The position numbers and the translations under genes were made by a program. Shown here piece by piece: positions 3,510 through 64,000 of a stretch of DNA of 64,000 nucleotides (positions are counted from its first letter, which is position 1; every line of letters starts with the position of its first letter). The notes below the pieces were generated by a model. It did not search any database, had not been told where the DNA came from, and saw only the letters and a program-made list of their open reading frames with translations. The DNA comes from Octopus sinensis. Taxonomy: Eukaryota. The stretch covers positions 21,576,001 through 21,640,000 of the forward strand of contig NC_043001.1 in the NCBI RefSeq assembly GCF_006345805.1, written 5' to 3'.

Positions 3510-4500
3510 AAGCGGCGAGCTGGCAAAAACGTTAGCACACCGGGCGAAATGCAAGCAGTATACGTTCTGAGTTCAAATTCCGCCGAGGTCGACTTTGCCT
3601 TTCATCCTTTCGGGGTCGATAAATTAAGTACCAGTTACGCACTAGGGTCGATATAATCGACTTAATCCCTTTGTCTGTCCTTGTTCGTCCCCTCTGCGTT
3701 TAGCCTCTTGTGGGCAATAAGGAAATAAGAAACGTTAGCACGCCGGACAAAATGCTTAGCGATATACGTTCTGAGTTCAAATTCCGCCGAGGTTGACTTT
3801 GCCTTTCATCCTTTCGGGGTCGATTAATTATATACCAGTTACGCACTGGGGTCGATATAATCGACTTAATCTGTTTGTCTGTCCTTGTTTGTCCTCTCTG
3901 TGTTTAGCCCCTTGTGGGTAGTAAAGAAATAGGTATTACGTCTGCCATTTATGTTCTGAGTTCAAATTCCGCCGAGGTCGACTTTGCCTTTCATCCTTTC
4001 GGGGTCGATAAATTAAGTACCAGTTACGCACTGGGGTCGTTGTAATCGACTTAATCCGTTTGTCTGTCCTTGTTTGCCTTCTCTGTGATTAGCCCCTTGT
4101 GGGTAGTAAAGAAATAGGCATTTCGTCTGCCGCTACGTTCTGAGTTCAAATTCCGCCGAGGTCGACTTTGCCTTTCATCCTTTCGGGGTCGATTAAATAA
4201 GTACTTGTTACGCACTGGGATCGATGTAATCGACTTAATCCGTCTGTCTGTCCTTGTTTGTTCCCTCTATGTTTAGCCCCTTGTGGGCAATAAACAAATA
4301 AGAAACGTTAGCACGCCGAGCGAAATGCTTAGCGGTATTTCGTCTGTCTTCACGTTCTGAGTTCAAATTCCGCTGAGGTCGACTTTGCTTTCATCCTTTC
4401 GGGGTCGATAAATTAAGTACCAGTTGCGTACTGGTGTCGATCTAATCAACTGGCCCCCTCCCCAAAAATTTCGGGCCTTGTGTCTAGAGTAAAAAAAAAT
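3510..4500 (+). mobile_element. SINE family B tandem array (about 5 units of ~180-210 bp)
   Basis: Head GCGGCGAGCTGGCA, repeated core GTTCTGAGTTCAAATTCCGCCGAGGTCGACTTTGCCTTTCATCCTTTCGGGGTCGAT, internal tails GCCCCTTGTGGGTAGTAAAGAAAT; the last unit has a different tail. Confidence 0.85.
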
Positions 4501-20255: not shown

Positions 20256-20709
20256 TATATTAATTACCCATGCGCTAATATTCTTACCTCCTCCTTAACC
20301 TCCCACATGCAAGCATCATCTGCTTGTAAGCTAAACGTCATACTTATAGTTATTTCATAAACGGAAGCCTGAAAAAGATCCTCGAACGAAGAGGTAATAA
20401 CATTACCGCTAAAAAAAAAGTAAAGAACCATCTACCAAGTTGACAGATGGCTTTTTGCCCTTCTCCAACTTATTAAATTCATTTATTTACAGTATCGGTT
20501 CTATTACTATTGCGACAATGGTTTCTGCTCATCTCGACTAGCAAACTTTATGCTGCCTCCACTCAAAACACTAATCTCCAATCCACCTCAATATTTCTTC
20601 TTCGTTTCATCACCTCTTAACTCCATACTAAACACTTTGTTCAATCCTTCTTCATCAAAAGTCCGTCCTATTGGAATTCTCCTTCGCGTACGTTTATCTT
20701 ACTGATACC

Positions 20710-21125
20710 TATTTCTTTACTACCCACAAGGGGCTAAACACAGAAGGGACAAACAAGGACAGACAAACGGATTAAGTCGATTATATCAATCCCAGTGCGT
20801 AACAGGTACTTATTTGATCGACCTTGAAAGGATGAAAGGCAAAGTCGACCTCGGCGGAATTTGAACTCAGAACGTAGCAGCAGACGAAATACCTATTTCT
20901 TTACTACCCACAAGAGACTAAACACAGAGCGGACAAACAAGGACAGACAAACCGATTAAGCCGATTATATCGACCCCAGTGCGTAACTGGTACTTAATTT
21001 ATCGTCCCCGAAAGGATGAAAGGCAAAGTCGACCACGGCGGAATTTGAACTCAGAACGTAGAAGCAGACGAAATACCGCTAAGCATTTTGCCCGGCGTGC
21101 TAACGATTCTGCCAGCTCGCCGCCT
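20710..21125 (-). mobile_element. SINE family B, two tandem units
   Basis: Reverse complement of the family B array. Confidence 0.85.
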
Positions 21126-25250: not shown

Positions 25251-25322
25251 AGTCCACAATTAGGATAATTATATATCTAATTAGTAAAAAAAAAAAGAAA
25301 TTGAAGCGCAAATTAGTAGCTA

Positions 25323-25887
25323 TTGGGTTGTCCGGAAAGTTCGTGCCAGTTTTAAAGGAAAGAAAAAGGTCAATAAATACTTGCCATTACATTTTTAATC
25401 TACCAAATATGAACCATTTTGTTGCACAATGCGTCTCCATCTTTCCTTTAACTTGAAAATACCCTCTTCCCAGAATTGAGGTGGTTTCATGGCAAAGAAT
25501 TCATCAAGGTATCTTTTTACGTCATCTAAGGAATTGAAATTTTTACCACTAAGACTATTCTGCAGAGACCTGAATAAGTGGAAATCCGAAGGAGCAATAT
25601 CTGGTGAATATGGGGGGTAGGGTAACACATCCCAGCCGAGCTGCAGCAATTTTTGTCTGGTTCCCAAAGCATCAAGTGCCGAAAATTAACTGTCTTATCT
25701 TCCATTTTAAAGGGTTACAGAATTAACACAGGTTATAGGAACATAAACCTTCTTCCACGAAAAGATAGCTTAAACTATGCTCTAAATGGAGGTGCAGTCA
25801 AATCCTATTTTATAGACTCAACCATGTTCTAAAATATGCCGAAATGTAAGCTACTATAAATCGGCACGAACTTTCCGGACAACCCAA
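25323..25887 (-). mobile_element. Internally deleted mariner element
   Basis: TIRs TTGGGTTGTCCGGAAAGTTCGTGCC at both ends, TA TSD; transposase C-terminus with YSPDIAPSDFHLF (25395-25667). Confidence 0.92.
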
Positions 25888-26428
25888 TACAATCAATTCC
25901 ATCAGATTATTGAAATTTATATTTACTTTGTCGGAAATAGGACTGGCATTGTTGCAAAGTGCATAATCTTTCTCGAAACTGATTGCTCGTCCGATATCAC
26001 CTTCCTGTATTTAAGTAATTTATTGAACTTTTAGTGTTATGTTTTCATCTACTTTCTCCAAAACTTGTAATCTCGGATATCAAATTGCATAATAACTTCA
26101 TATGGAATTGAACTGTGAAGCCCTTGTTAGGTGTTTATCCACTGAACCACTCTTTTACTGGACCGAAAGGCCAACCGAAACAAAACCTAATCACCACTTC
26201 AATTCCTTGACAGATTCTTTTGCTTCTCGTTGCTCGACATTTGAAAAGAATAAATTGCACGTCCAATTGTTCGCCGCCTGCTCTTTCTTCTACATAAAGG
26301 TTCGTGATTTTCATCAGATAAACTATGGAAACGTCACAAAGGAAAATTATTAGGTCACTAGGTCAAGTTTGGGCTGGACAATGTTTTATATATCTAAAAA
26401 CAGAGAGAGAGAGAGCGAGAGATAGATT

Positions 26429-36367: not shown

Positions 36368-36722
36368 TACTCTTTTACTCTTTTACTTGTTTCAGTCATT
36401 TGACTGCGGCCATGCTGAAGCACCGCCTTTAGTCGAGCAAATCGACCCCGGGACTTATTATTTGTAAGCCCAGTACTTATTCTATCGGTCTCTTATGCCG
36501 AACCGCTAAGTGACGGGGACGTAAACACACCAGCATCGGTTGTCAAGTAATGCTAGGAAGACAAACACAGACACACAAACATATACACACACACATATAT
36601 ATATATATACATATATGCGACGGGCTTCTTTCAGTTTCCGTCTACCAAATCCACTCACAAGGCATTGGTCGGCCCGGGGCTATAGCAGAAGACACTTGCC
36701 CAAGATGCCACGCAGTGGGACT
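36368..36722 (-). mobile_element. SINE family A
   Basis: Reverse complement of family A; head truncated. Confidence 0.8.
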
Positions 36723-37120
36723 GGTATATTTAATTTAATTTAATTTATAGAACTCCATTATACAAATATACTGTATATATATATATGACGGGCTTCTTTC
36801 AGTTTCCGTCTACCAAATCCACTCACAAGGTATTGGTCGGCCCGGGGCTATAGCAGAAGACACTTGCCCAAGATGCCACGCAGTGGGACTGGTATATTTA
36901 ATTTAATTTAATTTAATTTATAGAACTCCTTTATACAAATATACTGTATATATATATATATGACGGGCTTCTTTCAGTTTCCGTCTACCAAATCCACTCA
37001 CAAGGCATTGGTCGGCCCGGGGCTAGAGCAGAAGACACTTGCCCAAGATGCCACGCAGTGGGACTGGTATATTTAATTTAATTTAATTTATAGAACTCCA
37101 TTATACAAATATACTGTATA
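36619..37120. repeat. Three tandem ~170-bp copies of a SINE A fragment plus unique flank
   Basis: GACGGGCTTCTTTC...GGGACTGGTATATTTAATT...ATACTGTATA repeated 3 times. Confidence 0.9.
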
Positions 37121-37142
37121 TTGCTTCTATTTTTCGTTTCAG

Positions 37143-57680: not shown

Positions 57681-58199
57681 TTGTTGTTGTTGTTGTTGTT
57701 GTTATTGTTGTTGTTGTTGTTACTATTATTATTATGTATGGACAACAAGCAGAGGAATTCCGCGGTAAAGGAGGATCCAACCTTAAGCATAAGGTTAAGT
57801 TGAAACAATCATTAAAATCCTTACTGCTTAATTTAACATCTTGAGAAAATTATAGCCTGAATCGATCTGGGTGACATAAAATGTGACATGATGCCTCTGA
57901 ACAATTTGAGTTGAAGAAACAAAGCAATAAAAGAATTATATCCTGCTATAAAAGAATTACACCCTGAAATCAACAGATACATTTGTCCAATCCCTGGCAA
58001 AATCAAAATCTTCAATATCCTCTTTATGACTTCATAGCAGAATCCGTACCTGGACTCAAATTACACTCACGCATCCATTGCAAATAGATGCAGCTTCTTT
58101 CATTTTTAATGCTTTTTTTAAAAACTTTTTCTTCAAAACACTCATACGTCATTATCATCATCATCAACAACATCATCATCATCACGACTGGCATTTAAG

Positions 58200-58412
58200 C
58201 GACGGGCTGGCAAAATCATTAGCACGCCGGGCGAAATGCTTAGCGGTATTTCGTCTGCGGCTACGTTCTGAGTTCAAATTTCGCCGAGGTCGACTTTGCC
58301 TTTCATCCTTTCGGGGTCGATCAAATAAGTACCTGTTGAACACTGTGATCGATGTAATCGACTTAGCCATTCCCTCAAACCCGTTGGCCTTGTACCAAAA
58401 TTTGAAACCTAT
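58200..58412 (+). mobile_element. SINE family B
   Basis: Family B core. Confidence 0.75.
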
Positions 58413-58515
58413 AATTATTATTATTGTTGTTGCTATGCAGATTATAAAAACAGCTTTCATTTCTATCTGCTTAAGCTTTGATATTTAAAGTCAACAATTT
58501 AACACACATGATATA

Positions 58516-58613
58516 TTGGGTTGTCCGGAAAGTTCGTGACGATTTTTAAAGGAAAGAAAAAGGTCAATAAATACTTGCCATCACATTTTTAATCAACCAC
58601 ATCTGAACCATTT
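58516..58613 (-). mobile_element. 3' end of a mariner element (same family as 25323-25887), host of the tandem array
   Basis: TA + TIR TTGGGTTGTCCGGAAAGTTCGTG, colinear with 25323-25419 up to GAACCATTT, where homology stops abruptly. Confidence 0.9.
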
Positions 58614-60748
58614 GGCTGCTGTGATCAGCGGCCACGAGGAGGAAGTGGATATTCTCCATGCCTCGGTTAAGTCCGAGGGCTGGAGAGGCGTAACAGTGGA
58701 GCTGAACGTACAGGCAGAGAACGAGGTACTGGTGGACCTGGCGGAAAGCATCAGATTGGGAGACGTGATCATGAGAGTGTGGGTGGAGGGCAGAGCTCCA
58801 CGTTGTTACAAGTGTGGCCTGAGGGGTCACATAAGAGCCTTCTGCCCTCCCCCAGGGAAAGAAATGGATTCCGAACCACACAGAGAGAAGCAGAAACCAG
58901 AAGAGAAGGAGACAGTAGAAGAGGAAGAAAATACACAGAAATGGAAGGAAGCTGGAAATAAGAGGAAGAGAAGAATACGAGGAAAAGAAAAAACATGGAA
59001 CACCAATCTACCCCAAAACCACCCACACCCTCTGAGTCCCACCTATTCCTGCAGACAGTGAACCCACCCGCTCCCCCCCAACAAGAAAACAAAGGAAAAA
59101 AAAATAATACACACAGACAAGAGATTGAATTCGATATCAGGCCGTACATTTGTACTATGACTGAACAGAAAGAAGTTAAAAGTCTAATGGAAGAGTATAA
59201 ATGGTATGAAGTTGGTGAGACTAGGTATGCTGTGATTGAAAAGAAGAACATAGGTGAGTTTATGGTGAGGTGTGAAAGGGAGAATTGGGAGGTGAAGGAT
59301 ATAAGAATGAGCGATGAATTCGTGGAAAATATGGATGAGTATTTCGGAGTAAGAATGGATATGGAATTTATTCGTATTGGCAAAGAACATTCAAGTGACG
59401 ATGAAAAACAAAGGACAGGTAAGTGATGCTAACGGATGGGGCCGTTGGTATCGCTTTCATACTATCATTTTCTTTCACTTAACAATTCATTTTTCATAAA
59501 TTTTAATTATAATGTTCTATGTCCCCATGTGTTTTGGTGTCGCCCTCTGTGTCGCCCCTAGTGGGTAATAAAGAATCACCACATCTGAACCATTTGGCTG
59601 CTGTGATCAGCGGCCACGAGGAGGAAGTGGATATTCTCCATGCCTCGGTTAAGTCCGAGGGCTGGAGAGGCGTAACAGTGGAGCTGAACGTACAGGCAGA
59701 GAACGAGGTACTGGTGGACCTGGCGGAAAGCATCAGATTGGGAGACGTGATCATGAGAGTGTGGGTGGAGGGCAGAGCTCCACGTTGTTACAAGTGTGGC
59801 CTGAGGGGTCACATAAGAGCCTTCTGCCCTCCCCCAGGGAAAGAAATGGATTCCGAACCACACAGAGAGAAGCAGAAACCAGAAGAGAAGGAGACAGTAG
59901 AAGAGGAAGAAAATACACAGAAATGGAAGGAAGCTGGAAATAAGAGGAAGAGAAGAATACGAGGAAAAGAAAATAACATGGAACACCAATCTACCCCAAA
60001 ACCACCCACACCCTCTGAGTCCCACCCTATTCCTGCAGACAGTGAACCCACCCGCTCCCCCCCCCAACAAGAAAACAAAAGAAAAAAAATAATACACACA
60101 CACAAGAGATTGAATTCGATATCAGGCCGTACATTGTACTATGACTGAACAGAAAGAAGTTAAAAGTCTAATGGAAGAGTATAAATGGTATGAAGTTGGT
60201 GAGACTAGGTATGCTGTGATTGAAAAGAAGAACATAGATGAGTTTATGGTGAGGTGTGAAAGGGAGAATTGGGAGGTGAAGGATATAAGAATGAGCGATG
60301 AATTCGTGGAAAATATGGATGAGTATTTCGGAGTAAGAATGGATATGGAATTTATTCGTATTGGCAAAGAACATTCAAGTGACGATGAAAAACAAAGGAC
60401 AGGTAAGTGATGCTGACGGATGGGGCCGTTGGTATCGCTTTCATACTATCATTTTCTTTCACTTAACAATTCATTTTTCATAAATTTTAATTATAATGTT
60501 CTATGTCCCCATGTGTTTTGGTGTCCCCCTCTGTGTCGCCCCTAGTGGGTAATAAAGAATCACCAAATCTGAACCATTTGGTCGGTCGTGTTTTTTACGC
60601 TCGTAAAATTCGGCAAAAAAGAACAAAAAGCGTTGTTGTTGTTGTGGAAATTCTGAACGGCGTTGATGCGGTTTCGCGTTTCGCTCGTTCTGCGCGCTAC
60701 ACTTTTTTCTGTTTTGGCGGCCGTTTTCGGTCTGTCAGACAGAAGGAA

Positions 60749-62150
60749 ATGGACTATGAGTCTCTAACAGACTTGTCCACGACAGATGAGGAACTGGAAC
60801 AGGCAATTACAATGAAGCTGATGGAAGAAAAGGCTGGAGTTTTCGAGTCTTTATCAGACTTGTCTACGTCTGAGAAGGAGCTAGAAATGGCAGCGAGGAA
60901 ATTGGACGAGAAGCTGGGTTATACCTATGCCGGTGTAACCAAGAAGGCGGAAGAGAAAGGGGTCGACTTGGCCAAGCTACCAAGTTACCAGAAATACATG
61001 AAAAAGGAAAGCGGTGAGGTGGAACTAGCACCGACACCCGGGAGAAAAGAATGGTATGATAAGAGGACCATTATTTACAGGGTGTTCGCAAACGAAAGGA
61101 AGAGGGTAGAAGTTGTAACCATGGAGTGGATAGAGGAAGCCCTGAGAAGATCGGAGGAGGAAATTAATTTTCTGACTCGAGGATCCAAGTATGGTACCGT
61201 AGTTGTGCGTTTTAAAAGTGAGACTGCAGCGAGGAAGATGGCGGCGAAGGCGGTGAAGTCAGAAAAGGTAACACTTCTACCTACGTATTTGAATAGAAGG
61301 ATTACACGTGTGAGGATGGAGGGAGTGCCCCCAAACGTGGAGGCAGAGTGGATTGTGGCGGCTGTGATCAGCGGCCACGAGGAGGAAGTGGATATTCTCC
61401 ATGCCTCGGTTAAGTCCGAGGGCTGGAGAGGCGTAACAGTGGAGCTGAACGTGCAGGCGGAGAACGAGGTACTGGTGGACCTGGCGGAAAGCATCAGATT
61501 GGGAGACGTGATCATGAGAGTGTGGGTGGAGGGCAGAGCTCCACGTTGTTACAAGTGTGGCCTGAGGGGTCACATAAGAGCCTTCTGCCCTCCCCCAGGG
61601 AAAGAAATGGATTCCGAACCACACAGAGAGAAGGAGACAGTAGAAGTGGAAGAGAATACACAGAAATGGAAGGAAGTTGGAAATAAGAGGAAGAGAAGAA
61701 TACGAGGAAAAGAAAATAACATGGAACACCAATCTACCCCAAAACCACCCACACCCTCTGAGTCCCACCCTATCCCTGCAAACAGTGAACCCACCCGCTC
61801 CCCCCCAACAAGAAAACAAAAGAAAAAAAATAATACACACACACAAGAGATTGAATTCGATATCAGGCCGTACATTTGTACTATGACTGAACAGAAAGAA
61901 GTTAAAAGTCTAATGGAAGAGTATAAATGGTATGAAGTTGGTGAGACTAGGTATGCTGTGATTGGAAAGAAGAACATAGATGAGTTTATGGTGAGGTGTG
62001 AAAGGGAGAATTGGAGGTGAAGGATATAAGAATGAGCGATGAATTCGTGGAAAATATGGATGAGTATTTCGGAGTAAGAATGGATATGGAATTTATTCGT
62101 ATTGGCAAGAACATTCAAGTGACGATGAAAAACAAAGGACAGGTAAGTGA
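60749..62150 (+). CDS. Gag-like ORF1 protein (RRM-like region + CCHC zinc knuckle), long unit; two single-base frameshifts near 62012 and 62108
   Basis: ATG at 60749 (MDYESLTDLS..); VVVRFKSE, TRVRMEGVPP, CYKCGLRGHIRAFC (CX2CX4HX4C); sister units give the intact C-terminus ..SDDEKQRTGK*. Confidence 0.8.
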
Positions 62151-62318
62151 TGCTAACGGATGGGGCCGTTGGTATCGCTTTCATACTATCATTTTCTTTC
62201 ACTTAACAATTCATTTTTCATAAATTTTAATTATAATGTTCTATGTCCCCATGTGTTTGGTGTCGCCCTCTGTGTCGCCCCTAGTGGGTAATAAAGAATC
62301 ACCACATCTGAACCATTT

Positions 62319-63132
62319 GGCTGCTGTGATCAGCGGCCACGAGAAGGAAGTGGATATTCTCCATGCCTCGGTTAAGTCCGAGGGCTGGAGAGGCGTAACA
62401 GTGGAGCTGAACGTACAGGCAGAGAACGAGGTACTGGTGGACCTGGCGGAAAGCATCAGATTGGGAGACGTGATCATGAGAGTGTGGGTGGAGGGCAGAG
62501 CTCCACGTTGTTACAAGTGTGGCCTGAGGGGTCACATAAGAGCCTTCTGCCCTCCCCCAGGGAAAGAAATGGATTCCGAACCACACAGAGAGAAGCAGAA
62601 ACCAGAAGAGAAGGAGACAGTAGAAGAGGAAGAAAATACACAGAAATGGAAGGAAGCTGGAAATAAGAGGAAGAGAAGAATACGAGGAAAAGAAAATAAC
62701 ATGGAACACCAATCTACCCCAAAACCACCCACACCCTCTGAGTCCCACCCTATTCCTGCAGACAGTGAACCCACCCGCTCCCCCCCAACAAGAAAACAAA
62801 GGAAAAAAAATAATACACACAGACAAGAGATTGAATTCGATATCAGGCCGTACATTTGTACTATGACTGAACAGAAAGAAGTTAAAAGTCTAATGGAAGA
62901 GTATAAATGGTATGAAGTTGGTGAGACTAGGTATGCTGTGATTGAAAAGAAGAACATAGGTGAGTTTATGGTGAGGTGTGAAAGGGAGAATTGGGAGGTG
63001 AAGGATATAAGAATGAGCGATGAATTCGTGGAAAATATGGATGAGTATTTCGGAGTAAGAATGGATATGGAATTTATTCGTATTGGCAAAGAACATTCAA
63101 GTGACGATGAAAAACAAAGGACAGGTAAGTGA
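62319..63132 (+). CDS. 5'-truncated ORF1 copy with uninterrupted frame (zinc knuckle + C-terminal domain)
   Basis: Part of ORF 62236-63132, open through unit 4. Confidence 0.55.
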
Positions 63133-64000
63133 TGCTAACGGATGGGGCCGTTGTATCGCTTTCATACTATCATTTTCTTTCACTTAACAATTCATTTTTC
63201 ATAAATTTTAATTATAATGTTCTATGTCCCCATGTGTTTTGGTGTCGCCCTCTGTGTCGCCCCTAGTGGGTAATAAAGAATCACCACATCTGAACCATTT
63301 GGCTGCTGTGATCAGCGGCCACGAGGAGGAAGTGGATATTCTCCATGCCTCGGTTAAGTCCGAGGGCTGGAGAGGCGTAACAGTGGAGCTGAACGTACAG
63401 GCAGAGAACGAGGTACTGGTGGACCTGGCGGAAAGCATCAGATTGGAGACGTGATCATGAGAGTGTGGGTGGAGGGCAGAGCTCCACGTTGTTACAAGTG
63501 TGGCCTGAGGGGTCACATAAGAGCCTTCTGCCCTCCCCCAGGGAAAGAAATGGATTCCGAACCACACAGAGAGAAGCAGAAACCAGAAGAGAAGGAGACA
63601 GTAGAAGAGGAAGAAAATACACAGAAATGGAAGAAGCTGGAAATAAGAGGAAGAGAAGAATACGAGGAAAAGAAAATAACATGGAACACCAATCTACCCC
63701 AAAACCACCCACACCCTCTGAGTCCCACCCTATTCCTGCAGACAGTGAACCCACCCGCTCCCCCCCCCCCCAACAAGAAAACAAAAGAAAAAAAATAATA
63801 CACACACACAAGAGATTGAATTCGATATCAGGCCGTACATTTGTACTATGACTGAACAGAAGAAGTTAAAAGTCTAATGGAAGAGTATAAATGGTATGAA
63901 GTTGGTGAGACTAGGTATGCTGTGATTGAAAAGAAGAACATAGATGAGTTTATGGTGAGGTGTGAAAGGGAGAATTGGGAGGTGAAGGATATAAGAATGA

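What the first reader, a model, noticed from the sequence alone, without database searches (positions are those of the whole stretch)
58516..64000. ORF1-only retroelement array inserted at a fixed site inside a mariner transposon
Seen: the array begins right after a mariner TIR and 3' end matching the mariner at 25323-25887. The mariner sequence ACCA(C/A)ATCTGAACCATTT (last transposase codons; ACCAAATATGAACCATTT in the intact copy) reappears between every unit. Units encode only a gag-like RRM/CCHC protein, then a short 3' UTR ending GTGGGTAATAAAGAATC, with no RT, endonuclease or LTR. Known: Tx1-clade LINEs are often sequence-specific and Xenopus Tx1L targets a DNA transposon; HAL1 elements are ORF1-only L1 derivatives. 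Inference: this is a HAL1-type, Tx1-like non-autonomous element that uses an abundant mariner as its landing pad, with the 18-bp spacer as the TSD that regenerates the target. I do not know this combination to be described.
Basis: partly seen in the sequence, partly recalled or inferred. Interest (0 to 1): 0.9.

Follow-up and report, generated by a model that had tools for sequence, protein, structure and literature searches.

The report
Octopus retroelement inheriting its landing address
This is a tandem array of a stripped-down octopus retrotransposon that encodes only an RNA-binding protein and sits inside an old mariner transposon; its sub-families return to different repeats (mariner, a SINE, a Helitron-like repeat), likely because their RNA carries short pieces of an earlier landing site that pair with the next target.

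Summary
Observation confirmed. The array has six units (four identically 5'-truncated, two full, 1.72 kb), and the mariner resumes 2 kb past the window. The unit is an ORF1-only (two predicted RRMs + CCHC, dN/dS 0.10-0.18) derivative of L1/Tx1-group LINEs, which share both its termini and occur in the same arrays. The 'fixed mariner target' holds only in part: 9 of 56 loci of this sub-family touch the mariner site; most others are truncated copies at unique sites with 11-23-bp TSDs. The spacer is more than a TSD: variant forms travel with the element, replace the mariner's own letters at 5' junctions and occur without mariner. At unique sites the TSD starts with the letters that follow the donor in its arrays (CCA in 15 of 32 versus 0 of 14 for other tails). 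A sister sub-family 5.5% away goes to a SINE site, others to a Helitron-like site. Best reading: read-through RNA ends pair with the target, making preference heritable and switchable. The pieces have precedents (Tx1-Mar/SINEU, R1 tags, HAL1); I did not find the combination in print. RNA ends are untested.

The parts
58514..58613 (-). End of a mariner DNA transposon (TA, TIR, last transposase codons on the minus strand); the target
   Evidence: 91.5% identical to 25321-25425; translation of the empty copy
58596..58613 (+). 5' spacer/tag ACCACATCTGAACCATTT; two letters differ from the mariner's own ACCAAATATGAACCATTT kept at the 3' end of the array
   Evidence: of 14 genome matches to mariner context plus the ATCTG variant only this locus has the double variant
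58614..59577 (+). Unit 1, 5'-truncated at unit position 777
59578..59595 (+). Spacer (last tail base A + 17-bp tag/TSD)
59596..60561 (+). Unit 2, same truncation
60562..60579 (+). Spacer ACCAAATCTGAACCATTT before the full unit
60580..62300 (+). Unit 3, full length (1721 bp); first ~69 nt and last 31 nt shared with an autonomous LINE (L167)
60749..62150 (+). ORF1: acidic N-terminus, two predicted RRM folds, one CCHC knuckle, low-complexity linker, C-terminal domain; 1-bp deletion near 62012 in this copy
62140..62152 (+). CAGGTAAGTGATG: ORF1 stop overlapping a likely relic ORF2 ATG, with a splice-donor-like AGGTAAGT also found at the ORF1/ORF2 junction of the autonomous LINEs
62270..62301 (+). 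3' terminus ...GTCGCCCCTAGTGGGTAATAAAGAA + tail TCA, no poly(A); shared with autonomous LINEs and, more loosely, a tRNA-like SINE
62301..62318 (+). Spacer
62319..63282 (+). Unit 4, truncated; same SNPs as unit 1 (block duplication)
63283..63300 (+). Spacer
63301..64000 (+). Unit 5, truncated, runs past the window; then a second full unit, the native 18-mer and the rest of the mariner (window-equivalent 64286-66008 and 66009-66496)
25321..25889 (-). Empty, internally deleted 569-bp copy of the same mariner (reference target)

Best explanation
The array is made of an ORF1-only derivative of an L1/Tx1-group LINE that is likely copied into DNA by the endonuclease and reverse transcriptase of full LINEs sharing its two ends, and it likely returns to the same mariner position because its RNA carries letters of an earlier landing site at both ends. 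Shown in sequence: the structure, the TSDs, the shared termini, element-borne tags and tail-specific target starts. Inferred: RNA made from tandem arrays begins in the upstream spacer and reads through the 3' tail into the downstream spacer (no poly(A)); a loosely specific endonuclease nicks many sites; reverse transcription starts 3 nt past ...AATAAAGAA where the read-through letters pair with the nicked strand; the 5' tag then anneals to the upstream target and completes the insertion. Sites matching both ends (the mariner position, or the tag of a resident copy) are strongly favoured, so arrays grow and each sub-family inherits an address that can be overwritten when a copy in a new repeat becomes a source. 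Local duplication then enlarges arrays, as the (T,T,F)x2 pattern here shows.
For: (1) ORF1 core is 30% identical (E 3e-41) to ORF1 of an APE-RT-zf-RVT LINE whose best solved relative is human L1 ORF2p; L167 shares 30 of 31 terminal 3' nt and 74% of the first 69 nt with the unit; autonomous LINEs sit in the same arrays behind the same tags (L166, L167, L170). (2) 46 TSDs of 11-23 bp (mode 16-17) read from 3 nt after GAA; the tail matches the target's preceding bases in 1 of 46. (3) At sites other than the three repeat targets the junction continues CCA in 23 of 48 TCA-tail events versus 0 of 28 others (p 3e-6; background 1.2%), and AGA in 6 of 15 ATA-tail versus 0 of 48; in the 5' TSD copy alone, 15 of 32 versus 0 of 14 (p 0.0015). 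These are the letters that follow each sub-family in its arrays. The SINE, also ending ATA, shows a third start (T at +3 in 20 of 29, A at +4 in 27 of 29), like the GGTATT of its own arrays. (4) Dimers bounded by one outer TSD or by the mariner halves (L079, L111, L127, L121) join tail to internal CCAAA, CCAC or AGAA with no cut-site footprint there. (5) 5' junctions at mariner carry non-native variants shared across loci (window, L006, C3a; C15, C10211, L121) while the 3' copy is native in window, L006, L121; tags occur without mariner and pile up in nested form (C9b, L150, L156-L160). (6) In 3 loci the 5' join is at the mariner site but the 3' join is elsewhere, deleting target (C3a, C10211, C15), as tag annealing would do. 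(7) Occupied mariners are 7.4-14.2% apart, no closer than empty ones (7.2% mean), units inside them 1.6-5.0%. (8) Precedent for both pairing steps: PMC6530143, PMC2718515, PMC3649969.
Against: No RNA end was observed; only contigs of runs guessed to be RNA were available. 14 of 48 TCA-tail junctions match none of the expected letters. Different autonomous partners with different endonuclease tastes could produce tail-linked preferences; several LINE families (ORF2 about 54-76% identical to L042's) coexist. Three of the dimers share one junction (position 752) and may be one event. The non-TCA sample is not exhaustive (drawn from the first 100 of 159 listed ends plus protein hits) and mixes families. 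Units are mosaic, so the tree does not give a clean order of address switches.
Confidence: 0.65

Rival explanations
1. Protein-encoded specificity (first reader; Tx1-Mar-like): a dedicated partner endonuclease cuts the mariner sequence, other partners cut the SINE and Helitron-like sites, and tags are passive 5' transductions; arrays grow by re-insertion into the TSD.
For: Tx1 families with transposon targets and non-autonomous riders are documented (PMC4494074); several LINE families coexist here; mariner hits are far more frequent than a 6-nt match alone predicts (5 of the 10 terminal junctions starting CCAAAT are at the mariner).
Against: All 4 exact 3' junctions at the mariner site and all 13 loci with the mariner-type 5' tag hold ORF1-only units at that junction; sub-families 5.5% apart with the same 31-nt 3' end differ in target start; the same microhomology appears at internal dimer joints with no cut-site footprint; 47 of 56 loci are off the site.
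Confidence: 0.25
2. One ancient insertion into a mariner was spread as cargo by the mariner (or by segmental duplication or gene conversion), so no targeting is needed.
For: All mariner-site loci share the same position; mariner TIRs are present in four loci.
Against: Five occupied mariner copies are as divergent as empty ones and share no derived variant in more than 2 of 5; units inside are younger; the same position is reached with different tags and truncations; it cannot explain the CCA bias at unique sites.
Confidence: 0.04
3. The unit is a fragment of an LTR element or a host gene array (satellite).
For: Single CCHC knuckle resembles retroviral nucleocapsids; database relatives are annotated as hypothetical Octopus vulgaris genes.
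Against: No LTRs; 5' truncations, TSDs and a fixed 3' end at dozens of loci; ORF1 and both termini match APE-RT LINEs.
Confidence: 0.01

Closest known systems
Tx1-Mar LINEs and SINEU-1/2/3 of crocodilians (Kojima 2015, PMC4494074; passages and parts 3-4 of 5 read)
   Same: Tx1-group machinery, non-autonomous riders inserted at a preferred position of an abundant mariner, tandem copies around a TSD, a mariner-derived 5' extension in SINEU-2B; graded preference (13-90%); the author mentions that co-transcription with the target can strengthen targeting.
   Different: Riders there are non-coding snRNA-headed SINEs; autonomous Tx1-Mar share the mariner target and specificity is ascribed mainly to the endonuclease. 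Here the rider encodes ORF1, no autonomous element was found at the mariner site, and near-identical sub-families have different targets that track their terminal tags.
HAL1 (half-L1) elements (as described in PMC5753468, passages; Bao and Jurka 2010 not held)
   Same: Non-autonomous LINE derivative encoding only ORF1p; repeated origins.
   Different: Described from mammalian L1; here from an octopus L1/Tx1-group LINE with an RRM-RRM-CCHC ORF1, no poly(A) tail, tandem arrays and target bias; at least three ORF1-only families.
Drosophila R1 (melanogaster type) and R2/R2Ol (PMC2718515 passages and section 14; PMC6530143 passages)
   Same: Tandem copies separated by the TSD; target-derived 5' sequence carried to non-target sites and annealing to give target deletions; 3' read-through pairing with the target raises insertion efficiency.
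   Different: Those are autonomous, with a fixed 28S rDNA target set by a specific endonuclease; here the target-derived ends come from several unrelated repeats and appear to be exchanged.
HeT-A of Drosophila telomeres (PMC5537684, passages)
   Same: Gag/ORF1-only, head-to-tail arrays mixed with autonomous partners, upstream neighbour contributes to the transcript's start.
   Different: Telomere-end addition without TSD; not an interspersed, TSD-forming element.

Membership tests
HAL1-type ORF1-only LINE derivative | Single ORF homologous to a LINE ORF1, no ORF2 | tested here: met
   471-473-aa ORF, 30% identity E 3e-41 to ORF1 of an APE-RT LINE; no ORF2 hit in the window
HAL1-type ORF1-only LINE derivative | Retains 5' and 3' termini of an autonomous LINE (internal deletion type) | tested here: met
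   31-nt 3' end 96.8% and 69-nt 5' end 73.9% identical to L167; ORF1/ORF2 junction motif kept; ORF1 only 29% identical overall, so L167 is a partner, not the direct parent
HAL1-type ORF1-only LINE derivative | Moves as a unit by target-primed reverse transcription (TSDs, 5' truncation), ORF1 maintained | tested here: met
   46 TSDs of 11-23 bp; dN/dS 0.10-0.18 over 10 pairs of 5 natural copies
HAL1 proper (mammalian L1-derived) | Derived from L1 clade proper, with poly(A) tail (feature recalled) | tested here: not met
   No poly(A): ends GAA + 3 nt then TSD
Tx1 clade (partner LINE) | Two ORFs, ORF2 = APE endonuclease + RT + C-terminal zinc motif of the L1 group | tested here: met
   Pfam Exo_endo_phos, RVT_1, zf-RVT; best PDB match L1 ORF2p 1e-51 versus R2 2e-20
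Tx1 clade (partner LINE) | RT phylogeny groups with Tx1L/Keno/Kibi rather than L1 proper | not testable with these tools
   No named Tx1 reference among 69 homologues; the Tx1 label is a resemblance (RRM-CCHC ORF1, ZCCHC3-like Atlas neighbour at score 0.90) and partly recalled
Target-specific non-LTR element (criterion of PMC4494074: >20% of flanks in one repeat) | More than 20% of copies flanked by the target repeat | tested here: not met
   9 of 56 TCA-tail loci (16%) at the mariner site; it is met for the subset with a tagged full 5' end, 8 of 13
Tx1-Mar/SINEU-type system | Autonomous LINE sharing the mariner target | tested here: inconclusive
   None in exact-pattern searches of one assembly; diverged or extinct partners would be missed; autonomous LINEs do share the SINE and Helitron-like sites
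R1/R2-type target-tagged transcript | Target-derived sequence carried at the element's 5' end to other sites | tested here: met
   C9b, C6, L014, L198, L199 carry the mariner-type tag or its last part without mariner; L150 carries the SINE tag behind its own TSD
R1/R2-type target-tagged transcript | RNA ends shown to include target sequence | not testable with these tools
   Only assembled contigs were available
LTR retrotransposon | Long terminal repeats, gag-pol | tested here: not met
   Self-comparison and flank maps show none

The most novel reading that the evidence does not exclude
In this octopus L1/Tx1-like community, target choice is set mainly by short target-derived sequences at the RNA ends, acquired from a former TSD and passed between autonomous LINEs, ORF1-only elements and a SINE: a naturally reprogrammable, heritable address that lets one loosely specific enzyme home to a mariner, a SINE head or a Helitron-like repeat. 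It would offer a route by which sequence-specific retrotransposons arise and change target without endonuclease change.
Probability: 0.45. Interest if true: 0.8.

Novelty: new variant of a known kind. Interest (0 to 1): 0.6.

Why it matters
Target choice of non-LTR retrotransposons is usually ascribed to the endonuclease, yet Tx1-group elements use many different targets (PMC4494074). Here sub-families 5.5% apart that make no enzyme of their own have different preferred sites that match the letters flanking them in their arrays. That makes the question directly testable by swapping about 20 nt of RNA, and would be of use for RNA-programmed insertion tools. It also adds ORF1-only LINE derivatives under purifying selection outside mammals and shows how interspersed elements seed tandem arrays. 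The mariner-landing-pad idea alone is not new.

Tried and rejected
Pfam on the ORF gave only sub-threshold zf-CCHC; single-sequence AlphaFold was poor (pLDDT 53) and was replaced by a 77-sequence model (pLDDT 96). No L1 ORF1p or ZCCHC3 row appeared in the fold lists shown; this does not exclude kinship. Rfam over 58000-62400 found no ribozyme or other family above chance; folding of four terminal windows gave z of -0.4 to -1.6, so no processing structure is claimed. Expression: no RNA holder listed on record; contigs of four runs cover the unit but show neither RNA ends nor strand. Earlier scan notes: nothing by sequence or words. Clade placement by named homologues failed. Hitchhiking with the mariner was tested and rejected. 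Rows left out: L099 (23-nt match, no BLAST hit; counted as non-mariner locus but not in junction tables), C642 (duplicate of C10211), one poorly aligning empty mariner (L195; 20 of 21 kept), L102 (TSD not recovered), L023 (no end by the pattern; it slipped into the 29 SINE rows). Literature: ten searches found no paper on ORF1-only Tx1-like elements or tag-linked target switching in cephalopods; Bao and Jurka 2010, Anzai 2005 and Christensen 2000 were not held. Repbase entries, the supplements of PMC4494074 and the O. vulgaris repeat library of PMC13282606 were not seen and may already hold this family.
Full report
Observation. The window is G000:C5:21576001-21640000 of a 2.72-Gb genome; the nearest named proteins are from Octopus vulgaris. 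The array starts after a mariner end (58514-58619, 91.5% identical to the empty 569-bp copy at 25321-25889) whose minus strand encodes a mariner transposase C-terminus. The 18-mer occurs five times in the window, and each internal one follows GTGGGTAATAAAGAATC. Neighbouring DNA shows the array ending 2 kb further with the native ACCAAATATGAACCATTT and the remaining 490 bp of mariner. The order is T,T,F,T,T,F, where T is a ~965-bp unit truncated at position 777 and F the 1721-bp unit; SNPs pair units 1/4, 2/5 and (over most of their length) 3/6, so one block was duplicated.

The unit. Intact copies encode 471-473 aa. A 77-sequence AlphaFold model of the core has pLDDT 96 and matches tandem-RRM proteins, followed by a CCHC knuckle. 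Five natural copies from three families give dN/dS of 0.10-0.18 in 10 pairs. Directly beside one array lies a two-ORF LINE (L042) with a homologous ORF1 (30%, E 3e-41) and an endonuclease-RT-zf-RVT ORF2 closest to human L1 ORF2p among solved structures. Other LINEs (L142-L144, L166, L167) end in the same 31 nt as the unit and L167 also shares its first ~69 nt. The unit keeps the ORF1/ORF2 junction motif but no ORF2. It is therefore an ORF1-only derivative of an L1-group, Tx1-like LINE; placement in Tx1 proper could not be tested.

How fixed is the target? The 3' end has 159 exact copies; the TCA-tail sub-family has 74, which fall into 54 loci after removing one duplicate contig, plus two found. 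Nine of these 56 touch the mariner site, four with both halves. With at least 1721 exact empty sites this is far above chance, and it is not hitchhiking: five occupied mariners differ by 7.4-14.2% (20 empty copies 7.2% on average) and share no derived variant in more than two of five, while full units at seven mariner loci differ by 1.6-5.0%. Most of the other 47 loci are 5'-truncated copies at unique sites. A sister sub-family, 5.5% away and nested among the mariner-tag units in the tree, has its 3' junction at one position of a tRNA-like SINE in 12 loci, some of them mixed arrays; nine loci of related families and a LINE start at one position of a Helitron-like repeat. That sample came from the first 100 listed ends and from protein hits and is not exhaustive.

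The spacer. In 46 events with a recovered TSD (11-23 bp, mode 16-17) I read the duplication from 3 nt after ...AATAAAGAA, and those 3 nt equal the target's preceding bases once in 46, so the tail belongs to the element. At mariner loci the 5' spacer is often not the mariner's own: CCACATCTG in window, L006 and C3a, AAATCCTACCCATTT in C15, C10211 and L121, whereas the 3' copy is native in window, L006, L121 and L122; in mariner context the ATCTG variants are rare (14 matches, the double variant only at this locus, against 1721 native). Five of 13 loci with the tagged 5' end have no mariner, and tags accumulate in nested form behind newer TSDs (L150, L156-L160). Three loci join the mariner at the 5' side but prime elsewhere downstream. 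The spacer is thus a TSD-derived tag carried by the element.

The tail predicts the target. Excluding the three repeat sites and tag junctions, TCA-tail junctions continue with CCA in 23 of 48 cases against 0 of 28 for other tails (p 3e-6; window background 1.2%), with matches up to 8 nt; 14 of 48 match nothing. ATA-tail junctions continue with AGA in 6 of 15 against 0 of 48. Using only the upstream TSD copy, which must be target DNA, CCA is 15 of 32 against 0 of 14 (p 0.0015). CCA(A/C)AT and AGAAAC are what follows each sub-family in its arrays. The SINE, with the same ATA tail, shows a third pattern resembling its own array junction. Four dimers enclosed by a single outer TSD or by the mariner halves join the tail to internal CCAAA, CCAC or AGAA (L079, L111, L121, L127), where no target cut is evident; these imply template jumps onto RNA ends bearing those letters, or dimeric read-through templates. 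L079, L092 and L111 share one junction and may be a single event.

Mechanism. Shown: structure, TSDs, shared termini, element-borne tags, tail-linked target starts, independent insertions. Inferred: trans-mobilisation by the LINEs, read-through RNA with spacer at both ends, pairing at priming and at second-strand joining, and inheritance and switching of the address (confidence 0.65). The main rival is a set of partner endonucleases with different tastes (0.25); against it, no LINE was found at the mariner site or behind the mariner tag, but exact-pattern searches of one assembly cannot exclude it. No RNA end was seen.

Comparison. PMC4494074 (passages and parts 3-4 of 5 read) describes Tx1-Mar and SINEU in a crocodilian mariner, with tandem copies around TSDs and a mariner-derived 5' extension. 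PMC2718515 (passages, section 14) describes R1 tandems around the TSD and 28S-derived 5' sequence that anneals to the target and is carried to other sites. PMC6530143 and PMC3649969 (passages) report that 3' RNA-target pairing aids priming in R2Ol and L1. PMC5753468 (passages) defines HAL1; PMC5537684 (passages) covers HeT-A; bioRxiv 10.1101/158386 (passages) covers double insertion and array growth; PMC13282606 (parts 1-2 of 3) lists 13 recently active L1-Tx1 families in O. vulgaris without target analysis; PMC4758252 (passages) added nothing specific. Ten searches found no account of an ORF1-only Tx1-like element or of tag-linked target switching; Repbase and the unseen supplements may hold the family.

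Verdict. New variant of a known kind; interest 0.6; novel case 0.45 likely, 0.8 if true.

Noticed in passing
window 62140-62148; L042, L166-L170 ORF1/ORF2 junctions: A splice-donor-like AGGTAAGT (AGGCAAGT in L170) sits just before the ORF2 ATG in every LINE whose junction I printed and at the ORF1 stop of the ORF1-only units, about 150 nt before the terminal AATAAA; it might block polyadenylation and allow read-through (speculation).
   Followed up: partly
window 3527-4451, 20705-21077, 36593-37121 (tandem repeats of period 175-185); L031 5346-5590: An abundant tRNA-like SINE shares the 3' end GTGGGTAATAAAGAA with these LINEs and forms its own tandem arrays by rejoining at an internal GGTATTTCG; it is also a target (12 loci with the 3' junction at one head position).
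   Followed up: partly
L201-L204; L170, L172-L175: Third target: a repeat with at least 1328 exact motif copies, ending in a hairpin plus CTAG (Helitron-like; label from recall), that carries a decayed fragment of a related ORF1; 9 loci of ORF1-only and autonomous elements start at one position in it.
   Followed up: partly
L038, L149, L156-L160, L198: At least two further ORF1-only families (ORF 49-56% identical) with the same termini form mixed arrays with this family and with autonomous LINEs.
   Followed up: partly
L093, L101, L112, C10211 (L046-L047), window: Adjacent copies with identical 5' truncation separated by the local TSD recur, pointing to frequent local duplication of unit plus TSD by an unknown route.
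   Followed up: no
L085, L090, L098, L104, L106, L108-L110: Many insertions keep only the last 23-30 nt of the element yet have full 15-17-bp TSDs.
   Followed up: partly
L033 5665-7683: A 672-aa reverse transcriptase frame of a different LINE type lies about 1 kb before the C15 array; not classified.
   Followed up: no
L100 3593-3680 (G000 C7, about 33 kb from the contig start): A 30-nt insertion lies next to TAACCC telomere-like repeats.
   Followed up: no
P0001-P0005, P0075-P0080: Several 'hypothetical proteins' of Octopus vulgaris in public databases are pieces of this element's ORF1, so the family is present in that species too.
   Followed up: no
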